Of a stretch of 64,000 nucleotides of DNA, positions 2,825 to 11,056 are shown one piece after another. The notes beneath the pieces are model-generated. The model ran no database searches and was not told the DNA's origin. It saw only the letters and a program-made list of their open reading frames with translations. The stretch lies in sequence record PZ674595.1; one strand, 5' to 3'. Within the stretch, counting starts at the first letter, position 1, and each line of letters starts with the position of its first letter. A program made the position numbers and the translations under genes. The stretch comes from a phage.

Positions 2825-3028
2825 GTGCGTAAAGGATGTTTCGGCTCTCTTATCGCTGCTTCTGAAACTGGCAAGGCTTGTCTGGGGTGTCCAGACAAGC
2901 CCGATTGTCACCAATCAGCAAAAGAAGTTGCGATTTCGATGTATGGGAAGTTCGTAGGCTTCCCCAATGACAAAATCAAAAAAACCAGAAAGGTAAAAAC
3001 ACATGAAGGCACTGATGGTTCGAACTGA
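2825..3028 (+). CDS. small Cys-rich hypothetical protein (GTG start, overlaps dnaE-like start)
   Basis: 67-aa ORF with CLGCPDKPDC motif; no clear RBS; overlaps next gene out of frame. Confidence 0.25.
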   Translation: MRKGCFGSLIAASETGKACLGCPDKPDCHQSAKEVAISMYGKFVGFPNDKIKKTRKVKTHEGTDGSN

Positions 3029-6000
3029 CTTCTCACTTGGGGAGTCGGCTCTAAAAGCAGAAAACGCGGTGAAGATTGCCAGAGAAGCTGGCTACACCGC
3101 TGTAATTTCAGCAGATAGCATGAATATTGCAAGTGTTATTCCACTACAACGTGCCGCTGGTGACGACATGGCGGTTATTTGTGGTGTGAAACTAAACATT
3201 GTTGATGATCCCACATACGAGCACCGGGCTAAACTTGCTAAAGAATCTATGAGATGTATGGAATCATTAGAGCGGGGACGTAACTACTCGTTTACCGCTC
3301 TAATTAAAAATGAGCAAGGATATCGCGACATCTGCGAACTAATGACGGCGGCCAACACACGAGAACAGTTCTACTTTGTACCGCGTCTCTCGCTCGAACA
3401 GTTGGTTTCTACATATGCCAAAGGCAACATCATCCTGCTTACTTCCGACATCGGTAGCGTGTTCCAACGCAACGATTTTGCAAAAATCATAAGCACACTG
3501 ATTACAGCGGGTGGAAAAGACAACTTCTATAGTGTGGTTTATCCGCACCCTACCCCATTCTACGACCAGATTAACGTCCGGGCGATGAAAGTCGCCAGCG
3601 CATTGAAAATAGAGCCAGTGGCGTTCTATCCCGCTTATTACGAATCGATCGACGATGCAGACATTAAAGACATTGCGCACATGGTTACGAACAACATCAA
3701 AATCGACCAGCCGCATCGTCTGCGTATCCCCCACCAGCGAGATAACGCCGTCAATGGTCGCCGCCATCTCCTTGAGGCGCTTAAAGCCTTCTCCGTTCGC
3801 ATGGATGTGCCGGTAACAGCTGCAATGGCCTCAACAACGCAGGATACCATTATCGATGCCTGCACATGGCGCTGGCATGAATTGCCGCCAGCACTGCCAA
3901 AGATGGCAGACGACGAGCCTGCAACGCTTATGAAACTGGCTGTTGCAGGGCTGCGTAAACGTCTTACCACAAAAGAGTTTGGCTACACACCACCTGCTTC
4001 TGAGAACAGGGTTTATGTTGAGCGGCTAAAGTACGAAATGGACACGCTGACTCGCCTGGGATTCTGTGGTTACTTCCTGATGGTGCGCGATCTGATGAAT
4101 CATAGTCGTGAAACTGGCATTCCCGTTGGGCCTGGTCGTGGTTCCTCTGCCGGTTCTCTGGTGGCGTGGTGCATAGGCATAACCAACGTCGACCCAATCC
4201 GTCACGGTCTTCTGTTTGAGCGTTTCATCAACCCTGAGCGTCTCGACTTGCCAGATGCGGATTTGGACTTCAGCCAGGCACGTCGCCATGAGGTGATCGA
4301 GTATCTGAATGAACGCTACGGCGAAGATTACGTTGCAGGCATTCCGAACTTCACCTACCTGGGCGCAGCCTCTGCACTACGTGACACCGCTCGTATTTAT
4401 GGTGTGGAGTCCGCAGATATGGCGGTATCAAAAGAACTGAAGAACGCTGAGGATGATAGCCTTCCATTGGAAGAACTGCGCGAACAACTGGCAAGTCTCG
4501 ACAAATACGCAACAAAATATCCTGATGCATTCAATGCAGCCTGCAAGTTACAAAGCCTTATGCGTGGCTTTGGTAGACATGCGGCAGGGATGATCGTAGC
4601 AGGTGTTCCTCTGACAGAACGTACACCGGTTGAGCGCCGTGGTGACGCGCGTTGTATCGCATTTGACAAGCGTTACTGCGAGGCTATGGGCCTAATTAAG
4701 CTGGACGTGCTTGGCCTGGCAACTCTCGATTTGCTCGATAGTGCAAAACGCTACATAAAAGAGAACACAGGTGAAGATATCAATCTTGATGCCATTTCTC
4801 TTGAAGATCGCAAGGTGCTGGATGGTTTTGCTGCTGGGTACACTCAAGGTGTTTTCCAGCTTGAATCAGGCCCAATGCGCAAGCTGCTTAAAGATTTAGG
4901 TGGTGGAATTGAGCCAATGAGCTTTAAAACGGTCGTCGCTACAACTGCGCTCTTCCGGCCGGGGCCAATTCAATCAGGCATGTTGGATGACTATGTTTCT
5001 GTCGCCAAAGGCTTTATGACGCCGGAATCATTACACCCCGTTCTTGATGAACTTACCGCGGAAACAAATGGCGTGATTCTCTATCAGGAACAGACGATGA
5101 ACGCGACTCGATTGCTTGCCGGCTTCACAATGGCTGAAGCTGACGCTGTGCGTTCCGCAATCGGTAAGAAGAACATGGAAAAAATGAAGAGCATGGGCGA
5201 GAAGTTCATCGTTCAGGCTCAAGCTGGCTGGATAGACGTTGAGCTGGAAGATGGCACTACACAGCGCATTCACCGTGCGGAACATTTTAAATGCGAAGAC
5301 GGAACTCTGAAAACTGTCGAAGAGGCACTTGAGCACGGCGCAAAACTACCTATAAACGCAGTACGCGTTACAGCGTCACATCCAGGGCTATCAGAGATGA
5401 AAGCGAAGGAGATCTGGACCGCATTTGAGAAAAACGGAGCCTATCAGTTCAATAAATCACACTCCGTTGCTTATTCTTTAATCAGTTATCAGTCTATGTG
5501 GCTAAAGACGCACTACCCTGCTGAGTTCTTCGCAGCTGCGCTCACCATTCTGGGCGAGGATAAGCATCAGGGGCTGGTGAAGGATGCGCTGACCTATGGC
5601 ATTCGCGTATTGCCACCAGACGTTAATGTGTCATCTAACCGAATTGAGATCCGCACACTCGAAGACGGCAGTCAGGCACTGTATGCGCCATTCTCTGCTG
5701 TGAAAGGCTGTTCTGAAAATGGTTGTCAGGCAATTATGCGTGCGCGTGAGAAAGTTGGTGGCAAATTCGAGTCAGTGGCACAATTCGATGAAGCGGTCGA
5801 GAAGCGTGCATGTAACAGTCGTGTACGCGAGTCGCTTCATAAAGTAGGGGCTTTTGCGTCAATTGAGCCAGGCAGTCTGCCAGCAACTGATCCTGAACGA
5901 CTGCGCGACCAGGCTGAGCTGATGGGCAATCTCATCATTGACGCTGTTAAAGCATCACGTCCGTTCGAAATGAATCCTAAGCGTTCTGCCGAAATCAACG

Positions 6001-6521
6001 TACTCATGACACGTATGGCGGCTGAAATGGGCTTGGGTGAGGAGTTGATACGCCCGACTATTGGTATTAAACCCAAAATCATGATCATTCTGGACAATGC
6101 GAACGGCAATGACGCTCGTACCGGCTACTTCATGGAGAACGGATACGACGACTTTAAGGCAAAACTACTGACAGTTGGAGATCTGCGCATGGGCGATCTT
6201 TATGTCACGGGTGTTTGTAAGAAGGTTAAGGACAAAGAGAAAGACTATACCAAAGACGAGATAGGCCAGTTCACAGACTTTATGCGGGAAGAAATTAATC
6301 TTGTACGACCAACCTACATTTTGACGTGTGGTAGTCGTTCAACCGCACTATTTAACAATAAGAGTAAACCATCAGATCTGATTGGTCGTAAGGAGTACTT
6401 CCCAGAGCTTGATGCAACCGTCTTCTACGGATTTAACCCGAATATCCTGTACTTCCGACCGGAAGAAGGAGAGCGACTGGAGGCCATTCTGGCTGATATC
6501 GCGGAGACAATAAATAAGTAA
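3003..6521 (+). CDS. dnaE: DNA polymerase III alpha subunit homologue (DnaE-like)
   Basis: 1172-aa ORF; DnaE-type motifs GVFQLESGPMRKLL and FNKSHSVAYSLISYQSMWLKTHYPAEFFAAAL; N-terminal PHP-like region; RBS AAAGGTAAAAACAC before ATG. Confidence 0.9.
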   Translation: MKALMVRTDFSLGESALKAENAVKIAREAGYTAVISADSMNIASVIPLQRAAGDDMAVICGVKLNIVDDPTYEHRAKLAKESMRCMESLERGRNYSFTALIKNEQGYRDICELMTAANTREQFYFVPRLSLEQLVSTYAKGNIILLTSDIGSVFQRNDFAKIISTLITAGGKDNFYSVVYPHPTPFYDQINVRAMKVASALKIEPVAFYPAYYESIDDADIKDIAHMVTNNIKIDQPHRLRIPHQRDNAVNGRRHLLEALKAFSVRMDVPVTAAMASTTQDTIIDACTWRWHELPPALPKMADDEPATLMKLAVAGLRKRLTTKEFGYTPPASENRVYVERLKYEMDTLTRLGFCGYFLMVRDLMNHSRETGIPVGPGRGSSAGSLVAWCIGITNVDPIRHGLLFERFINPERLDLPDADLDFSQARRHEVIEYLNERYGEDYVAGIPNFTYLGAASALRDTARIYGVESADMAVSKELKNAEDDSLPLEELREQLASLDKYATKYPDAFNAACKLQSLMRGFGRHAAGMIVAGVPLTERTPVERRGDARCIAFDKRYCEAMGLIKLDVLGLATLDLLDSAKRYIKENTGEDINLDAISLEDRKVLDGFAAGYTQGVFQLESGPMRKLLKDLGGGIEPMSFKTVVATTALFRPGPIQSGMLDDYVSVAKGFMTPESLHPVLDELTAETNGVILYQEQTMNATRLLAGFTMAEADAVRSAIGKKNMEKMKSMGEKFIVQAQAGWIDVELEDGTTQRIHRAEHFKCEDGTLKTVEEALEHGAKLPINAVRVTASHPGLSEMKAKEIWTAFEKNGAYQFNKSHSVAYSLISYQSMWLKTHYPAEFFAAALTILGEDKHQGLVKDALTYGIRVLPPDVNVSSNRIEIRTLEDGSQALYAPFSAVKGCSENGCQAIMRAREKVGGKFESVAQFDEAVEKRACNSRVRESLHKVGAFASIEPGSLPATDPERLRDQAELMGNLIIDAVKASRPFEMNPKRSAEINVLMTRMAAEMGLGEELIRPTIGIKPKIMIILDNANGNDARTGYFMENGYDDFKAKLLTVGDLRMGDLYVTGVCKKVKDKEKDYTKDEIGQFTDFMREEINLVRPTYILTCGSRSTALFNNKSKPSDLIGRKEYFPELDATVFYGFNPNILYFRPEEGERLEAILADIAETINK

Positions 6522-6525
6522 TAAA

Positions 6526-6551
6526 GAAAACCCGCCTGTTGGCGGGTTTAT
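6526..6551. terminator. Rho-independent terminator hairpin, usable on both strands (after dnaE-like; downstream of csp on minus)
   Basis: AAAACCCGCC-TGTT-GGCGGGTTTAT; A-run before and T-run after the stem. Confidence 0.6.
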
Positions 6552-6824
6552 AAAGAATTATGGCGCTTGTTGAGGAAGTCACTCCTCTTACGCACTTTGT
6601 TTTGCCATGCCGGCAGTTAGCTTCTGCCTTTGACTATTCATGCGGCAACCCCGCATTTCGCCACAATGGGCAATTCACTTTTATGGAATAAACTGGCCGT
6701 TGTGTCGATTTAATTAGCATGGCCTTACCATGCTAATTTATTCAACTTGTACAATCCTACAAATCTATCCACTCAGGCTTACACCGTCTTCGTTATTGTA
6801 GAAATGAGGATCATCAGCGTTGAA

Positions 6825-7040
6825 TCAGCTTAGAGCAACGACATTTGCTGCTGCTGGGCCTTTAGCCCCATTCTCGATAGAGAATTCGACCTGCTGGCCT
6901 TCTTCCAAAGTGCGGAAATTATTACTCTGAATTGCCGAAAAATGTACAAAAACATCTTTACTGCCATCAGCAGGAGAAATAAAGCCAAAGCCTTTATCAG
7001 AGTTAAACCATTTTACTAAACCAGTCATTTTATTAGACAT
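6825..7040 (-). CDS. Cold-shock protein, CspA family (closest in my recollection to CspB/G/I)
   Basis: Translation [38 protein letters not shown]... with RNP motifs KGFGFI and VFVHF; ATG at 7040 is internal Met33 of the 103-aa track ORF, preceded by GAAGGT. Confidence 0.9.
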
Positions 7041-7369
7041 AGATATTACCTTCTTAATTTTGTGAGCCACATAGTGCGGCGAGAATTTGATCTGTATAGA
7101 TTGGGACTTACTTAGGCACTTAAGGAGGAGACTCACGAAGAAGGGAAATCAGAAGATAACACTGAACTGAGACTGCTTTACTAAAACTGCTTACATAAGG
7201 TCTGTCTTGCAAACCAACGATGCTATTAACGCATACCCCTTCTTTTCATGCAACCTTTATTTTTCAAAGATAACTAATTTTTGTCACCATTGGTTTAGTA
7301 AACGTTAACGAACCAGACGATGCCAGACACCTTTACAGAGAACAGATGCCCGCCAATTGGCGGGCATCA

Positions 7370-7933
7370 TTATGCGCATTTCGCAATATCTTTGCGGCGT
7401 TTAATCAGTTTCTCCGCAATTTGCTCTATTTCGTTGAAATCTTTCGAGACGCTGTTTCGAAGCGCCAGATTCCATTTACTCAAAGTTCGGGCATTTTGGA
7501 CAATTTGATCGCCCTCTTTAAGTCGTCCGTTATTCATGAGCCATTCAGCCACATCAGCCCAATCCCAGAGAGGAGACTGGCCTTTTATGCGTTGTACAGG
7601 GCAAGGGAAGTCGCCGCTTCCGCGCTTACCGTCTTTGAGCAACGCCACTGCCTGGCGAGACAGGTCTGTCAGTTCCGCGATATCGCTTAAGCCCACAAGA
7701 GCCGAGTCGACGGATTCAACAATTGCACCGATACCGGCTGATTCAATATTGTCGACCGCAGATGCGATAGCTGCATCAAGTGATTGTGCTTCGCGGTCAA
7801 ATTCTACATAGACGGAGTTTCCATATGCGCAAATTAGCGCATCGTCACAGCCGTTTTGGTACAGCGCGTCTTCCAGTCCTTCCGTCTCATACGATACGCC
7901 TGAGAGCGTCAGAGTGAAGTTATAAAGCGCCAT
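7370..7933 (-). CDS. DNA-binding protein with C-terminal AlpA/excisionase-like HTH; possible antitoxin partner of upstream small gene
   Basis: Track ORF begins with TTG at 7969; first ATG (Met13) at 7933 has RBS AAAGGAAAA; C-terminal LTDLSRQAVALLKDGKRGSGDFPCPVQRIKGQSPLWDWADVAEWL resembles AlpA-type HTH. Confidence 0.5.
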   Translation of the reverse strand: MALYNFTLTLSGVSYETEGLEDALYQNGCDDALICAYGNSVYVEFDREAQSLDAAIASAVDNIESAGIGAIVESVDSALVGLSDIAELTDLSRQAVALLKDGKRGSGDFPCPVQRIKGQSPLWDWADVAEWLMNNGRLKEGDQIVQNARTLSKWNLALRNSVSKDFNEIEQIAEKLIKRRKDIAKCA

Positions 7934-7993
7934 AGTTTTCCTTTGAAGATAGTTGGACAGTTTCTGCAAAAGGCGGCTAATGCCGCCTTGAAA

Positions 7994-8218
7994 TCATTTA
8001 CAACGATCAACCATTCGTTTGATCTGTTTGGCATGGTTTTCGGGATTACCCGGAGTCGACCATACGCTCATTTGGTGAGTTTTGTGTTCACCTTCTGGAT
8101 TACCGCATCGCAGTCTGCAAAAACAATGTGCAGCACCACCAGCTGCTACCCAGATCCAGCCTTTACTTAATGCATAGTCAATGGCTGCTTGAATATGCTT
8201 ATTCGGATGTTGCTTCAT
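7994..8218 (-). CDS. small Cys/His-rich protein, weakly HicA-like; first gene of a two-gene minus-strand module
   Basis: 74-aa ORF, strong RBS GGAGG 5 nt before ATG at 8218; followed by hairpin GGCGGC-ATTA-GCCGCC then the HTH gene. Confidence 0.5.
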   Translation of the reverse strand: MKQHPNKHIQAAIDYALSKGWIWVAAGGAAHCFCRLRCGNPEGEHKTHQMSVWSTPGNPENHAKQIKRMVDRCK

Positions 8219-8228
8219 TCGCCTCCGA

Positions 8229-8264
8229 TAATAGTATTCTATTCACAGTGTTGACATCTGTCAA
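8229..8264 (-). promoter_or_regulatory. sigma70-like promoter with -35 inside a perfect palindrome (TTGACAGATGTCAA), 17-bp spacer, -10 TAGAAT
   Basis: Minus-strand reading TTGACA-N17-TAGAAT about 10 nt upstream of the GGAGG RBS of gene 7994-8218. Confidence 0.55.
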
Positions 8265-8473
8265 CGGCGACTGAATTTCATCCGTTCATGCCACACCCCC
8301 ATCCATCTCATGTATGTGACCTAAAGATGGTCAGCACAGCTTACCAAAATAAGACAACTAATTATCTTCGGTGATCTCAATATTTTTCCCCTGAACAAAG
8401 TTGACATGACGCCATAAACCCGTTCTCTGTTTGATATAATTGATACAGATTTTATAAGTAGGAACCTATTAGA

Positions 8474-8905
8474 GTGAACACTGATATTTTTTCTAAAATC
8501 ATGGCCGATCTGGAGTTCGACCGCGACAACCTTGAGGAAGTATGGCGTAAACAGCCACGGCTTTTAATGGAGTATGGGTCAAAACTAGCGCAGGCAGATC
8601 GAGATGTCGCAGAGGCAAAACTTAACCTTGAAGCTGTTGAAGCAAAGCTATACGACACAGAGCGTAAGAACTTGAGTATGAACGGCATTAAGTTCAACGA
8701 GTCTGTACTGGACGCTAAGGTTAAAACAAACCCACAGTATCTGTCTAAACGGCAGAAGTTGGATGAAGCACGGCACATCGCAGACATATACAAACATGCT
8801 GTCGCCGCCTTTTCGCATCGCCGAGACATGATCGTTCAGGCGTCAAAGATGGCCATCGTAGAATTAGAGCGATTAGGCTCTGAACGCTTTATTACTCCCC
8901 GTTGA
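8474..8905 (+). CDS. hypothetical protein (predicted coiled coil)
   Basis: 143-aa ORF with GTG start; extended -10 TGATATAAT at 8432-8440 upstream. Confidence 0.4.
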   Translation: MNTDIFSKIMADLEFDRDNLEEVWRKQPRLLMEYGSKLAQADRDVAEAKLNLEAVEAKLYDTERKNLSMNGIKFNESVLDAKVKTNPQYLSKRQKLDEARHIADIYKHAVAAFSHRRDMIVQASKMAIVELERLGSERFITPR

Positions 8906-9022
8906 TTTTTGATAGATAATAAGTAAGTACTGATCTATCATTTAACAGCTCGAAAGAGCCACGAATGAACGAAAGCCCAACGCGCATAGCGCCATCGGCC
9001 AAATCACAACAAGGAGAAACAC

Positions 9023-10051
9023 ATGTCTAAGACATTACTTGATTTGCTTAACAAAACTCGTGAAGACATTGCCGCCAAACGTGGCAACAACGTTGATCTG
9101 ACTCGCTTAAAAGACGGCGTCAACTATATCCGCATCTTCCCGAATAAAGACGACCCAAACGGTAAGTTCTTCCAGACTTTCGGTATGCACTACGTTAAGT
9201 ATCAGAACGAGGAAGGTAAAGAAGCAACCAACGCTTATATTTGTGAGCAACATACTCACGGTCGCGCTTGTCAGCTATGCGAAATGGTTATGGAAGGTCG
9301 CGCTCGTCACAAGGGTAACAAAGCAATGGAAGAACGCATCGGTCAAATGCGTGCCACTCCTCGCTACCTGGTCAACGGCATTCTTTCTGCTCGTGAGGAT
9401 TTCGCAGATGCTGAGAAATGCCAGTTAATCGAGCTGCCGTCTACTGTATTCGATGATATCTGCAAAGCAATCACCGAAGACATCGCTGATGATATCGGCA
9501 ATCCACTGAGCAAAGAGGAAGGCTACGCATTCCTGATTAAACGTACTGGCTCTGGTCGCGATACCAAATATGACGTCTCGCCTAAGCGTAAAGTCTACAA
9601 AGGCGATATCGAAGATAAATTCTGGAACACCCAGCATGATCTGATCGCATACGCAAATCAGGCTGATGAAACTCGTCTTCTGTCGACAGTTCGCACTATG
9701 GGTCGTCTGATTGGCATCGCTGCACCAACTGCCGCAGCATCTGCACCAGCAATTTCCTCAACCGCGAAAACATCGGCTGCGGCACTACCTGGATTTGGCT
9801 CTGTCACTGGTCATACAGAAGGAGCGACGGCTGTAGCAACCGCGCACACACCGGCTTCTGAACCAACCAGTCTGGTTGATGAAGAAATCCTCCGTGCCGT
9901 TGAAACTGAATTTAAACCAGAAGCAAGTTCCGCTGCCGTTGCAGTATCAGTCAAAGAGTCTGAAGCAGTCGCAGCGACATCTGTAGCAGCCGCATCTGCG
10001 ACGGAAGATGAAGGTCTGGATGACCTACTGAGAGAGCTGGACTCTCTGTAA
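9023..10051 (+). CDS. single-stranded DNA-binding protein, T4 gp32-like
   Basis: Cys-x2-His-x5-Cys-x2-Cys cluster (CEQHTHGRACQLC) as in the gp32 zinc subdomain; Ala/Ser-rich acidic C-terminal tail ending DDLLRELDSL; RBS AAGGAGAAACAC. Confidence 0.6.
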   Translation: MSKTLLDLLNKTREDIAAKRGNNVDLTRLKDGVNYIRIFPNKDDPNGKFFQTFGMHYVKYQNEEGKEATNAYICEQHTHGRACQLCEMVMEGRARHKGNKAMEERIGQMRATPRYLVNGILSAREDFADAEKCQLIELPSTVFDDICKAITEDIADDIGNPLSKEEGYAFLIKRTGSGRDTKYDVSPKRKVYKGDIEDKFWNTQHDLIAYANQADETRLLSTVRTMGRLIGIAAPTAAASAPAISSTAKTSAAALPGFGSVTGHTEGATAVATAHTPASEPTSLVDEEILRAVETEFKPEASSAAVAVSVKESEAVAATSVAAASATEDEGLDDLLRELDSL

Positions 10052-10070
10052 TCCCATTACGTGACCAGTA

Positions 10071-10097
10071 AGGCGTCTACGGACGCCTTACTTTTTG
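10071..10097 (+). terminator. Rho-independent terminator
   Basis: AGGCGTC-TACG-GACGCCT followed by TTTTT; same stem sequence as terminators at 12404 and 13541. Confidence 0.7.
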
Positions 10098-10111
10098 GAA
10101 GGAATGTACCG

Positions 10112-11056
10112 GTGAATTATCTCTTCGTAGATGGCAATAGCCTGGGTTATTACCACCAACAATCTGACAAATTGCACAACGGCGAAATGGAAGTACAGGC
10201 TGCTTTCGGCTTTGTTAAGAACGTCCGTCGTTATGCCTCCATCCTCCATGCCCGACCTATGATTCTTTGGGATGGATTTAGTGACAAGCGTCGCGACTTT
10301 TACCCGGACTACAAAGCAAATCGCGACGACGATCCTGATATGAAAAAGATGAAGGAAGGCTTTGCTATCCAGAAGCCATACATCCTCAAAATGATGACCG
10401 CGCTTGGAGTTACCCAACTCATTGCAAAAGATGCAGAAGCGGATGATCTGGCCGGGCTGCTGGTATCCCGCATGGCACCGCAGCCAACCGTTGAACACAT
10501 CTATCTGTTAACAGGCGATAGCGACTGGCTTCAGTTAGTTCGTGAAAACGTAAGCTGGGTAAGCCTGCGTGAAGACGCCAAAAACAAGCAGGTTAATTTT
10601 GAGCAATTTGCGGAGCTGACAGGATTCGCCACGCCTCGCGCATTTTTGGAAGCAAAAGCATTACAAGGCGATAACTCGGACAACATTAGCGGTGTTGGAG
10701 GCATTGGTGCTGGCGGTGCGAAAGAGCTGCTGCATGAATGGGGAAGTGTCGCAACGATGGTACGCGGCATCAACGACGGCTCAATCGTGGTTAATAAAGG
10801 GCGTCATAAGACCGCCTTCAACAAACTAGCGAAGAATGCCTTCAACGAGAAAACAGGCTGTCGAATGCTCGAAGCGTTCAAGAGAAACATCACGCTAATG
10901 AACCTGATTGAGACGAAGTTTCCGCCTACCGAAATCGAAACAATCAAAGGCAATCGTGACGTGAAAGCATTCGAGCAACTGTGCTACGAGCTGAATTTCC
11001 GTTCGTTCCTTGAAGACCTTGAAGTGTTTGTTCTTCCATTCGAAAGGTATTGCTAA
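10112..11056 (+). CDS. 5'-3' exonuclease / flap endonuclease (T4 RNase H / Pol I 5'-nuclease family)
   Basis: VNYLFVDGNSLGYY N-terminus, acidic-cluster motifs ADDLAGLL and GDSDWLQL; GTG start at 10112 with RBS GGAAGGAA; the track ORF start at 10061 lies inside the upstream terminator. Confidence 0.8.
   Translation: MNYLFVDGNSLGYYHQQSDKLHNGEMEVQAAFGFVKNVRRYASILHARPMILWDGFSDKRRDFYPDYKANRDDDPDMKKMKEGFAIQKPYILKMMTALGVTQLIAKDAEADDLAGLLVSRMAPQPTVEHIYLLTGDSDWLQLVRENVSWVSLREDAKNKQVNFEQFAELTGFATPRAFLEAKALQGDNSDNISGVGGIGAGGAKELLHEWGSVATMVRGINDGSIVVNKGRHKTAFNKLAKNAFNEKTGCRMLEAFKRNITLMNLIETKFPPTEIETIKGNRDVKAFEQLCYELNFRSFLEDLEVFVLPFERYC

What the first reader, a model, noticed from the sequence alone, without database searches (positions are those of the whole stretch)
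7370..8264. Two-gene minus-strand module with palindromic promoter: candidate toxin-antitoxin (HicA/HicB-like) addiction cassette
Seen in sequence: a 74-aa Cys/His-containing protein with strong RBS, followed after a short hairpin by a 187-aa protein whose C-terminus is an AlpA/excisionase-type HTH; upstream sits a sigma70-like promoter whose -35 is embedded in the perfect palindrome TTGACAGATGTCAA. Inference: small protein first, DNA-binding protein second, autoregulatory operator-like promoter, and location on a plasmid-like element fit a type II toxin-antitoxin or similar maintenance module. The HicA assignment is weak; the pair lies next to a cold-shock gene in a convergent arrangement.
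Basis: partly seen in the sequence, partly recalled or inferred. Interest (0 to 1): 0.45.

Follow-up and report, generated by a model that had tools for sequence, protein, structure and literature searches.

The report
Autoregulated two-gene toxin–antitoxin-like cassette
A small zinc-type protein and its acidic DNA-binding partner form a self-repressing two-gene cassette carried by a phage-plasmid and many other mobile elements; it looks like an untested toxin–antitoxin or phage-defence module, but is not a provable member of the HicA/HicB family.

Summary
On the minus strand there is a near-consensus sigma-70 promoter (TTGACA-17-TAGAAT) inside a palindrome, a 74-aa Cys/His protein (A), a hairpin, a 187-aa protein with an AlpA-like winged helix (B), and a terminator. 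One detail is wrong: the cold-shock gene is co-directional, not convergent. The window is an SSU5-like E. coli phage-plasmid, 99.7% identical to phage Cyrano, whose authors labelled the pair HicA/HicB.

Best reading (about 0.5): a toxin–antitoxin-like addiction or defence module of a new family that resembles HicAB in layout. Toxicity is untested.

The parts
8250..8265 (-). Operator: the 16-bp palindrome GTTGACAGATGTCAAC (GTTGAC-N4-GTCAAC). Its left arm is the -35 hexamer.
   Evidence: The same palindrome class lies 38-56 nt upstream of A in 48/65 loci with an HTH-bearing B and in 0/14 loci with an HTH-less B. Only 51 such palindromes occur in 642.5 kb of fetched loci.
8236..8264 (-). Sigma-70-type promoter: TTGACA, 17-nt spacer, TAGAAT.
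   Evidence: 11 of 12 matches. In the near-identical phage-plasmid Cyrano, both genes are transcribed in lysogens at 30x and 14x the prophage background (PMC9928086).
8222..8226 (-). Shine-Dalgarno sequence GGAGG of gene A.
   Evidence: Read from the sequence.
7994..8218 (-). Gene A: a 74-aa basic Cys/His protein (putative toxin) with an α-β-β-β-α fold and a probable Zn site (C38, H45, H48, C73). H31 is conserved before β2.
   Evidence: Matches PADLOC PDC-M06A at 1.2e-19 and phrog_5923.
7970..7989 (-). GC-rich stem-loop directly after A's stop codon, followed by TTTG. Likely a partial terminator or attenuator, or an mRNA-stabilising structure.
   Evidence: Stem-loops with different sequences occupy the same place in most Enterobacterales, SSU5 and pMT1 loci, often followed by a T-run. 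The terminator scan did not call it.
7700..7933 (-). Gene B, N-terminal domain (aa 1-78): acidic, ferredoxin-like β-α-β-β-α-β. Putative A-binding and neutralising domain.
   Evidence: It is the only part of B present in all loci, and it is fused to A in L078.
7526..7699 (-). Gene B, AlpA/MerR-like winged helix-turn-helix (aa ~79-136).
7370..7525 (-). Gene B, C-terminal pair of long helices (aa ~137-187) plus the stop codon. Presumed dimerisation element.
   Evidence: for the secondary structure. The role is inferred.
7345..7368 (-). Intrinsic-terminator-like hairpin GATGCCCGCCAATTGGCGGGCATC that ends the A-B unit.

Best explanation
This is a self-contained, autoregulated, two-gene toxin–antitoxin-like module. 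It equals the untested PADLOC candidate PDC-M06 and is carried in the backbone of an SSU5-type phage-plasmid.

Proposed mechanism:
1. A strong sigma-70 promoter transcribes A then B during lysogeny. This step is shown for the 99.7%-identical element Cyrano.
2. B, probably as a dimer, binds the palindrome GTTGAC-N4-GTCAAC that overlaps the -35 box through its AlpA-like winged helix, and so represses its own operon. This is inferred from strong comparative evidence.
3. A is a small basic protein held together by a Cys/His zinc site, with the same α-β-β-β-α layout as HicA RNases and a conserved His at the start of β2. It is the harmful partner, most likely acting on RNA. This is inferred.
4. B's very acidic N-terminal ferredoxin-like domain binds and neutralises A. 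This is inferred from obligate pairing, a natural fusion and charge complementarity.
5. A stem-loop after A tunes the A:B ratio.
6. Loss of the element, or a shut-off of B supply (for example during infection by another phage), would free A and arrest the cell. That would stabilise the phage-plasmid and/or give abortive-infection defence.
For: Identity and pairing:
- A and B match PDC-M06A (1.2e-19) and PDC-M06B (1.3e-32).
- PDC-M06 is an untested cassette found embedded in BREX/DISARM/RM-I loci, with 497 RefSeq instances.
- A is immediately followed by B on the same strand in 81/83 loci, from Enterobacterales to Planctomycetes.
- The third gene in these loci varies.

B's modular structure:
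- HTH-less B proteins of 82-92 aa keep only the N-domain.
- A and the B N-domain are fused in L078.

Operator:
- The palindrome is present in 48/65 loci with an HTH-bearing B versus 0/14 without, Fisher p = 2e-7. The N4 spacer varies and the half-sites shift by lineage.

Protein properties:
- A has a median pI of 9.4; the B N-domain has a median pI of 4.2, with net charge -13.5 in the window copy.
- A's AlphaFold model has pLDDT 88.8 and an α-β-β-β-α layout.
- H31 is conserved in 91/95 members, directly before β2.

Asymmetric decay:
- A is pseudogenised while B's N-terminal domain stays intact in L019, L061, L070, L065 and L047. The reverse never occurs.

Context and expression:
- The cassette sits next to YefM/YoeB and RelE/MqsA-like pairs, in prophages and islands.
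- It is conserved at the same slot in SSU5, pMT1 and 299 plasmids.
- It is expressed in lysogens (PMC9928086).
Against: - No toxicity, binding or RNase data exist for any member.
- No A-family member hits Pfam HicA_toxin, even at E<=1.
- HHalign against genuine HicA alignments gives only a 19-column local match (Prob 77%) and a collinear match at Prob 12%.
- Foldseek against the PDB finds nothing significant.
- A terminator-like hairpin between the putative toxin and antitoxin, together with twofold higher A than B RNA in lysogens, is the opposite of the antitoxin excess expected for type II TA.
- An A-B fusion is unusual for a TA pair.
- The HTH/palindrome correlation is partly confounded by phylogeny, because HTH-less B proteins cluster in Planctomycetes and related phyla.
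Confidence: 0.5

Rival explanations
1. It is a genuine, merely divergent member of the HicA/HicB type II toxin–antitoxin family. A would be a HicA mRNA interferase and B a HicB antitoxin, as annotated in phage Cyrano.
For: - The Cyrano annotation names them 'HicA toxin protein' and 'putative antitoxin HicB' (PMC9928086).
- Gene order is toxin first, then antitoxin with a C-terminal DNA-binding domain.
- A has HicA's secondary-structure order.
- A conserved His sits before β2, where HicA's catalytic His lies.
Against: - Pfam HicA_toxin is not hit by any of 95 family members.
- HHalign gives no convincing collinear alignment, and Foldseek is negative.
- A carries an invariant Cys/His zinc-type site that is absent from the five HicA sequences examined.
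- B's DNA-binding domain is AlpA/MerR-like, not RHH or Xre.
Confidence: 0.12
2. It is primarily an anti-phage (abortive infection) defence system rather than a plasmid addiction module. B would sense infection and release or activate A.
For: - Both proteins match PADLOC's phage-defence candidate PDC-M06.
- That candidate was defined because homologous cassettes sit embedded inside BREX, DISARM or type I RM loci.
- The Providencia copy lies near RM genes and a reverse-transcriptase gene.
- Prophages and phage-plasmids commonly carry defence genes as morons, and the pair is expressed in lysogeny.
Against: - PDC-M06 is one of 145 untested candidates.
- Most copies seen here are not in recognisable defence islands.
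- This reading overlaps the best explanation mechanistically and is not exclusive of it.
Confidence: 0.2
3. It is not a toxin system. B would be a transcriptional regulator or excisionase-like factor of the phage-plasmid, and A a small zinc-binding co-regulator or anti-repressor. Together they would control neighbouring replication and recombination genes or the lysis-lysogeny decision.
For: - PHROGs and GenBank call B 'excisionase and transcriptional regulator' or 'AlpA-like'.
- The pair sits between the uvsY-gp32-FEN-recA block and dnaE at a fixed position in SSU5-like elements.
- A second GTCAAC half-site lies 150 nt upstream, towards the divergent uvsY-like gene.
- A RNA exceeds B RNA.
Against: - The same pair occurs in chromosomes and islands with unrelated neighbours.
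- Many lineages keep A with an HTH-less B, so DNA binding is not the core function.
- The palindrome is unique in the 64-kb window, so there is no regulon of sites.
- No integrase is adjacent.
Confidence: 0.13

Closest known systems
HicA/HicB type II toxin–antitoxin systems (E. coli HicAB 6HPB; B. pseudomallei 6G26; S. pneumoniae 5YRZ; Y. pestis HicA3B3 4P78)
   Same: - The toxin gene lies upstream of the antitoxin gene.
- The toxin is small and basic, with α-β-β-β-α order and a conserved His at the start of β2.
- The antitoxin combines an N-terminal toxin-binding domain with a C-terminal DNA-binding domain.
- The promoter carries a palindromic operator.
   Different: - There is no detectable sequence homology.
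- A is about 15 residues longer and has an invariant Cys/His zinc-type site bridging the β2-β3 loop and the C-terminus.
- B's N-domain is ferredoxin-like rather than the HicB fold.
- The DNA-binding domain is an AlpA/MerR-like winged helix.
- A stem-loop separates the two genes.
PADLOC phage defence candidate PDC-M06 (Payne et al., bioRxiv 10.1101/2024.01.29.577857)
   Same: Both proteins hit the PDC-M06A and PDC-M06B HMMs, and they are adjacent in the defined A>>B order.
   Different: PDC-M06 is only a guilt-by-embedding candidate, with no tested function, mechanism or domain description. This copy sits in a phage-plasmid backbone, not inside a BREX, DISARM or RM locus.
MqsR/MqsA and HigB/HigA 'reverse-order' type II TA systems
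   Same: The toxin comes first. The antitoxin has a separate toxin-binding domain and an HTH, and it represses through a palindrome in the promoter. A structural zinc site is present in one partner (in MqsA; from my own knowledge).
   Different: Here the zinc-type site is in the putative toxin, not the antitoxin. The folds differ, since MqsR and HigB are RelE-like. No sequence similarity was found.
AlpA / MerR-type excisionase-like regulators (e.g. 8C3T GIsul2 excisionase)
   Different: B has an extra N-terminal ferredoxin-like domain and a C-terminal helical hairpin. No integrase partner or att sites are nearby. Pfam Phage_AlpA is not hit at E<=1.

Membership tests
HicA toxin (Pfam PF07927) | Significant match to the HicA_toxin profile | tested here: not met
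   hmmscan of the window protein and of 95 diverse family members found no PF07927 hit, even at E<=1. Genuine HicAs do carry PF07927.
HicA toxin (Pfam PF07927) | Profile-profile similarity to bona fide HicA alignments | tested here: inconclusive
   HHalign of A4 against the E. coli HicA family and against a mixed PDB HicA alignment. The best result is a 19-column local match (Prob 77%) that pairs A's N-terminus with the segment before HicA helix 2. The collinear alignment reaches Prob 12%.
HicA toxin (Pfam PF07927) | dsRBD-like α1-β1-β2-β3-α2 fold | tested here: inconclusive
HicA toxin (Pfam PF07927) | Catalytic His at the start of β2 after a Gly-containing turn | tested here: met
   H31 is conserved in 91/95 members. 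It sits directly before β2 (E32-37) and follows G-x-S/A-x, which compares with the GSH motif of HicA. Equivalence is judged by secondary-structure register, not by superposition.
HicA toxin (Pfam PF07927) | mRNA interferase activity and toxicity neutralised by the partner | not testable with these tools
   Needs expression and RNase assays.
HicB antitoxin | N-terminal HicB/UPF0150-type (partial RNase H-like) toxin-binding domain | tested here: not met
HicB antitoxin | C-terminal RHH or Xre-type DNA-binding domain | tested here: not met
   A DNA-binding domain is present, but it is of the AlpA/MerR winged-helix type.
Type II toxin–antitoxin module (generic) | Two small adjacent co-directional genes inherited as a unit on mobile elements | tested here: met
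   A-B adjacency holds in 81/83 loci. The pair occurs in phage-plasmids, prophages, islands and chromosomes.
Type II toxin–antitoxin module (generic) | Autoregulation by the antitoxin through an operator in the promoter | tested here: met
   In silico only. The palindrome overlaps the -35 box and co-occurs with B's HTH (48/65 vs 0/14). Binding itself was not tested.
Type II toxin–antitoxin module (generic) | Toxin is growth-inhibitory and is neutralised by direct protein binding | not testable with these tools
   Indirect evidence only: charge complementarity, the natural fusion in L078, and A pseudogenes with B intact but never the reverse.
PADLOC PDC-M06 | Adjacent genes matching the PDC-M06A and PDC-M06B HMMs in A>>B order | tested here: met
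   A hits six PDC-M06A models, the best at 1.2e-19. B hits PDC-M06B at 1.3e-32. The cassette definition is FAM_01986>>FAM_01364.
PADLOC PDC-M06 | Protects against phage infection | not testable with these tools
   It was untested in the source paper as well.
AlpA/excisionase-type HTH | Winged helix of the AlpA/MerR superfamily | tested here: met

The most novel reading that the evidence does not exclude
A-B founds a new, widespread toxin–antitoxin/defence family (more than 700 clusters at 50% identity, from Proteobacteria to Planctomycetes and Bacteroidota relatives). In this reading a zinc-knuckle-stabilised small nuclease-like toxin, either a very remote or a convergent look-alike of HicA, is neutralised by a previously undescribed acidic ferredoxin-like antitoxin domain. 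That domain may or may not carry an AlpA-type HTH recognising GTTGAC-N4-GTCAAC. The module would be a conserved backbone feature of the SSU5/pMT1 phage-plasmid lineage, including the Yersinia pestis pMT1 plasmid.
Probability: 0.4. Interest if true: 0.55.

Novelty: new variant of a known kind. Interest (0 to 1): 0.45.

Why it matters
If A is a toxin, this pair defines a large uncharacterised TA or abortive-infection family. It has no Pfam model for either core domain. The toxin would carry a metal site of a kind not seen in the HicA sequences examined, and the antitoxin domain would be new.

The pair sits at a fixed position in the backbone of SSU5-like phage-plasmids. These are common in clinical Enterobacteriaceae and include Y. 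pestis pMT1. It could therefore help explain how these low-copy elements persist, or how they exclude competing phages.

The predicted operator (GTTGAC-N4-GTCAAC), the domain boundaries and the candidate catalytic and zinc residues (H4, K7, H31, H62; C38, H45, H48, C73) make the hypothesis directly testable.

It also corrects database labels ('HicA/HicB', 'excisionase', 'RuBisCO small subunit').

Tried and rejected
- **Pfam, NCBIfam and PDB sequence searches** for A, B, the broad A family and the B N-domain gave nothing meaningful.
- **Weak RuBisCO_small hits** appeared in 17/95 A members (best 1.2e-4, below the cut-off). I rejected them as spurious.
- **HHalign of the A family against real HicA alignments** was not convincing.
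- **Foldseek of the A model against the PDB** gave no significant hit.
- **B as excisionase** was rejected. No integrase is adjacent, the pair occurs with unrelated neighbours, and HTH-less B proteins exist.
- **The search for related loci with the broad alignment A4** failed because no stretch was conserved enough. It was rerun with A1.
- **A literature search for 'PDC-M06'** found no paper text. Only a supplementary table lists it.
- **A separate sigma-70 promoter for B** was not found inside A or the A-B spacer by the consensus scan.
- **The first hairpin-statistics script** timed out and was rerun.

Full report
**What is in the sequence**

On the minus strand, reading 5' to 3', the region holds the following features.
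- A promoter TTGACA (8264-8259), 17-nt spacer, TAGAAT (8241-8236) matches 11 of 12 consensus positions. It is the best site in the scanned 6500-9000 region.
- The -35 hexamer is the left arm of a perfect 16-bp palindrome, GTTGACAGATGTCAAC (8250-8265).
- GGAGG precedes the ATG of gene A (7994-8218, 74 aa) by 3 nt.
- Four bases after A's TGA stop codon lies the stem-loop AAGGCGGC-ATTA-GCCGCCTT (7970-7989), followed by TTTG.
- Gene B runs from the ATG at 7933 to 7370 (187 aa). The longer TTG-initiated ORF is an over-extension, because all homologues start at MALYNF.
- A strong hairpin at 7345-7368 ends the unit.
- The cold-shock gene (6825-7040) is also on the minus strand. It has a complete cspA-thermoregulator 5'UTR (Rfam RF01766, 185.7 bits, 6800-7218).

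**Where the window comes from**

The region is 99.7% identical to Escherichia phage Cyrano, the SSU5-like phage-plasmid pLF82. It is 100% identical to many E. coli plasmids of about 110 kb. Cyrano's annotators named the two genes 'HicA toxin protein' and 'putative antitoxin HicB'. Their lysogen transcriptomes show the genes at 30x (A) and 14x (B) above the prophage background (PMC9928086). The promoter is therefore active in lysogeny, and A RNA exceeds B RNA about twofold.

**Database identity**

Neither protein hits Pfam or NCBIfam. PHROGs place A in phrog_5923 (unknown function) and B in phrog_2620 ('excisionase and transcriptional regulator'). Both match PADLOC's PDC-M06A (1.2e-19) and PDC-M06B (1.3e-32). 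PDC systems are cassettes found embedded inside BREX, DISARM, type I RM or Hma loci. All 145 are untested candidates (bioRxiv 10.1101/2024.01.29.577857). PDC-M06 is cassette FAM_01986>>FAM_01364, with 497 RefSeq instances.

**Protein A**

- *Family size.* A profile search of 1.84 billion representative proteins found 708 clusters at E<=1e-3 and 262 at E<=1e-10.
- *Conservation.* Across 95 diverse members, C38 and P56 are invariant. H4, K7, W21, H31, T55, A63 and C73 are conserved in at least 90%.
- *Probable zinc site.* Position 48 is Cys in 75 members and His in 17. Forty-two members end in C73-x-His. Many of the rest lack that His and have extra Cys in a longer β2-β3 loop (CPYND..CRCG.FC). 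The window's subfamily has H45 and H48 and no C-terminal His. Four Cys/His ligands supplied from alternative positions is the signature of a structural zinc site. This is an inference; no metal data exist.
- *Fold.* The AlphaFold model (pLDDT 88.8) is α(7-18)-β(22-25)-β(32-37)-short helix-β(49-53)-α(59-72).
- *Sequence comparison with HicA.* None of the 95 members hits Pfam HicA_toxin at E<=1. I built genuine HicA alignments from the E. coli HicA family (all PF07927) and from PDB HicA sequences. HHalign gave only a 19-column local match (Prob 77%), between A's N-terminal HPNKxI-helix motif and the PRHPxxEI segment before HicA's second helix. The collinear alignment reached Prob 12%.
- *Conclusion for A.* A has HicA's topology and a conserved His (H31) where HicA's catalytic His sits. 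Homology is unproven, and the zinc-type site is absent from the HicA sequences I examined.

**Protein B**

The model (pLDDT 84.8) has three parts:
- an N-terminal β-α-β-β-α-β domain (residues 1-75)
- a winged helix-turn-helix (about residues 80-135)
- two long C-terminal helices (143-186)

**Comparative genomics**

- *Spread.* A pattern scan of one genome per 185,579 species found 303 loci. The 80 loci kept come from Enterobacterales, Pasteurellaceae, Neisseriaceae, Acinetobacter, Alteromonadaceae, Idiomarina, Planctomycetes, Balneolales, Verrucomicrobia, Latescibacterota and others.
- *Pairing.* In 81 of 83 loci, a B homologue follows A immediately on the same strand. The two exceptions are a contig end and a fusion.
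- *Variable neighbours.* The next gene differs between loci.
- *Core of B.* In Planctomycetes and relatives, B is 82-92 aa and consists only of the N-domain (profile positions 1-77). In the Rhodothermales MAG locus L078, A is fused in frame to that domain. The conserved core is thus A plus the B N-domain, and the HTH is an optional add-on.
- *Charge.* A is basic (median pI 9.4, net charge +5). The B N-domain is strongly acidic (median pI 4.2; net charge -13.5 in the window copy).
- *Asymmetric decay.* A is disrupted while B's N-terminal domain remains intact in five loci: L019 (W53stop), L061 and L070 (frameshifts), L065 (frameshift) and L047 (Q65stop). In L047, B has also lost its HTH. No locus has an intact A with a broken B N-domain. 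This asymmetry is what one expects if A is harmful without B.
- *Contexts.* The pair occurs in the following settings:
  - a P2-like prophage beside YefM/YoeB
  - an integrative island beside a RelE/MqsA-like pair
  - an integrase/IS110 islet
  - plain chromosome
  - the same slot between the uvsY-gp32-FEN-recA block and dnaE in SSU5, Y. pestis pMT1 and Enterobacter, Citrobacter and Cronobacter phage-plasmids
- *Plasmid count.* 299 PLSDB plasmids encode A, of which 273 are non-mobilizable.

**The operator**

A perfect palindrome of the class T[TA][GT]AC-N4-GT[CA][AT]A lies within 150 nt upstream of A in 48 of 65 loci whose B has the HTH. It lies upstream in 0 of 14 loci whose B lacks the HTH (Fisher p = 2e-7). 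Only 51 such palindromes exist in all 642.5 kb of fetched loci, so nearly all of them are these sites. Most sit 38-56 nt before the start codon.

The half-sites shift by lineage:
- GTTGAC/GTCAAC in Enterobacterales, Acinetobacter and Idiomarina
- GTTTAC/GTAAAC in Pasteurellaceae, Neisseria, Moraxellaceae and Balneolales
- GTAGAC/GTCTAC in Alteromonadaceae

The central N4 is free. SSU5 keeps the site with one mismatch, and pMT1's copy has decayed. The right arm is not needed for promoter function. Its conservation, together with its link to the HTH, argues for a B-binding operator that occludes the -35 box. One caveat applies: HTH-less B proteins are phylogenetically clustered, so the test is not fully independent.

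**The intergenic stem-loop**

Of 80 loci, 37 have A and B overlapping or less than 20 nt apart, and 43 have a spacer of at least 20 nt. In most Enterobacterales, Alteromonadaceae, SSU5 and pMT1 loci, the spacer begins with a GC-rich hairpin. Its sequence differs between loci, and it is often followed by a T-run. It probably attenuates read-through into B or stabilises the A message. That is consistent with the twofold A:B RNA ratio. It is also an oddity for a toxin–antitoxin pair, where antitoxin excess is expected.

**Interpretation**

The best-supported model (about 0.5) is an autoregulated toxin–antitoxin-like module. A would be a zinc-stabilised, HicA-shaped, probably RNA-targeting toxin. 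B's acidic N-domain would neutralise it, and B's AlpA-like HTH would repress the promoter. The module would serve phage-plasmid maintenance and/or abortive-infection defence.

The following are shown:
- the anatomy
- expression in lysogeny (in a near-identical element)
- the pairing of A with B
- the domain modularity of B
- the statistical link between operator and HTH

The following are inferred:
- toxicity of A
- A-B binding
- zinc binding
- DNA binding by B
- the biological role

Rivals, with my confidence in each:
- a true but divergent HicAB (0.12; fails sequence tests for both partners and the fold test for B)
- a dedicated defence system (0.2; overlaps the main model)
- a non-toxic regulatory pair (0.13; hard to reconcile with HTH-less B proteins and varied contexts)

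**Novelty and score**

The cassette is already flagged as an untested candidate (PDC-M06) and has been loosely labelled HicAB. It is therefore not categorically new. New here are the zinc-type site in A, the non-HicB antitoxin domain, the defined operator and the backbone conservation in SSU5/pMT1 elements. I rate it a new variant of a known kind, with interest 0.45.

Noticed in passing
window 6800-7218 (-), csp CDS 6825-7040: The phage-plasmid carries a CspA-family cold-shock gene with a full-length cspA thermoregulator 5'UTR (Rfam RF01766, 185.7 bits against a gathering score of 78). It lies on the same strand as A and B, directly after their terminator. Enterobacter relatives have an unrelated 214-aa gene in this slot.
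   Followed up: partly
window 8395-8407: A second copy of the operator half-site (ATGTCAAC on the minus strand) lies 150 nt upstream of the palindrome, in the divergent intergenic region towards the uvsY-like gene (8474-8905). It could be an auxiliary B site or chance.
   Followed up: no
A-family proteins (alignment A4); P0039: 17 of 95 A-family members give weak sub-threshold Pfam RuBisCO_small hits (best E 1.2e-4). One NCBI record (Shewanella, P0039) is actually named 'ribulose bisphosphate carboxylase small subunit', which is probably a mis-annotation.
   Followed up: partly
L002:6001, L036:4001, L079:1609, L065:4001: In several marine gammaproteobacterial loci, the conserved Met position of A is an Ile codon (Leu in L065), and in L002 the nearest ATG upstream is out of frame. 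This could be a non-canonical weak start codon that limits A translation, or it could be early pseudogenisation.
   Followed up: partly
L019, L061, L070 (Providencia), L065, L047: A is disrupted by a nonsense or frameshift mutation while the B N-terminal domain downstream stays intact. The reverse was not seen in 83 loci.
   Followed up: yes
L078:3923-4477 (Rhodothermales MAG): A single ORF fuses A to the B N-terminal domain. It is either a natural Rosetta-stone fusion or an assembly frameshift.
   Followed up: partly
L085-L087 versus window 3003-6521: In Enterobacter SSU5-like plasmids, the DnaE-like polymerase is split into 787-aa and 389-aa parts by an HNH/NUMOD4 homing-endonuclease gene, and RecA carries an intein with LAGLIDADG. 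The window's DnaE (1172 aa) is uninterrupted.
   Followed up: no
L095:1440-1500 (Y. pestis pMT1) and L094:1440-1495 (SSU5): SSU5 keeps the operator with one mismatch (GTTGACTCAAGTTAAC). In Y. pestis pMT1 the right arm has decayed (TTGACACGCGCTCAC), although A and B are intact, which suggests relaxed autoregulation there.
   Followed up: partly
window 8474-11056 (+): Divergent from A-B is a T4-like recombination block: a UvsY-like mediator (phrog_2058; weak hit to phrog_231), a gp32-like SSB (Pfam gp32, 1.7e-66) and an ORF (10061-11056) that Cyrano's annotators call an exonuclease. This fits the SSU5 backbone.
   Followed up: no
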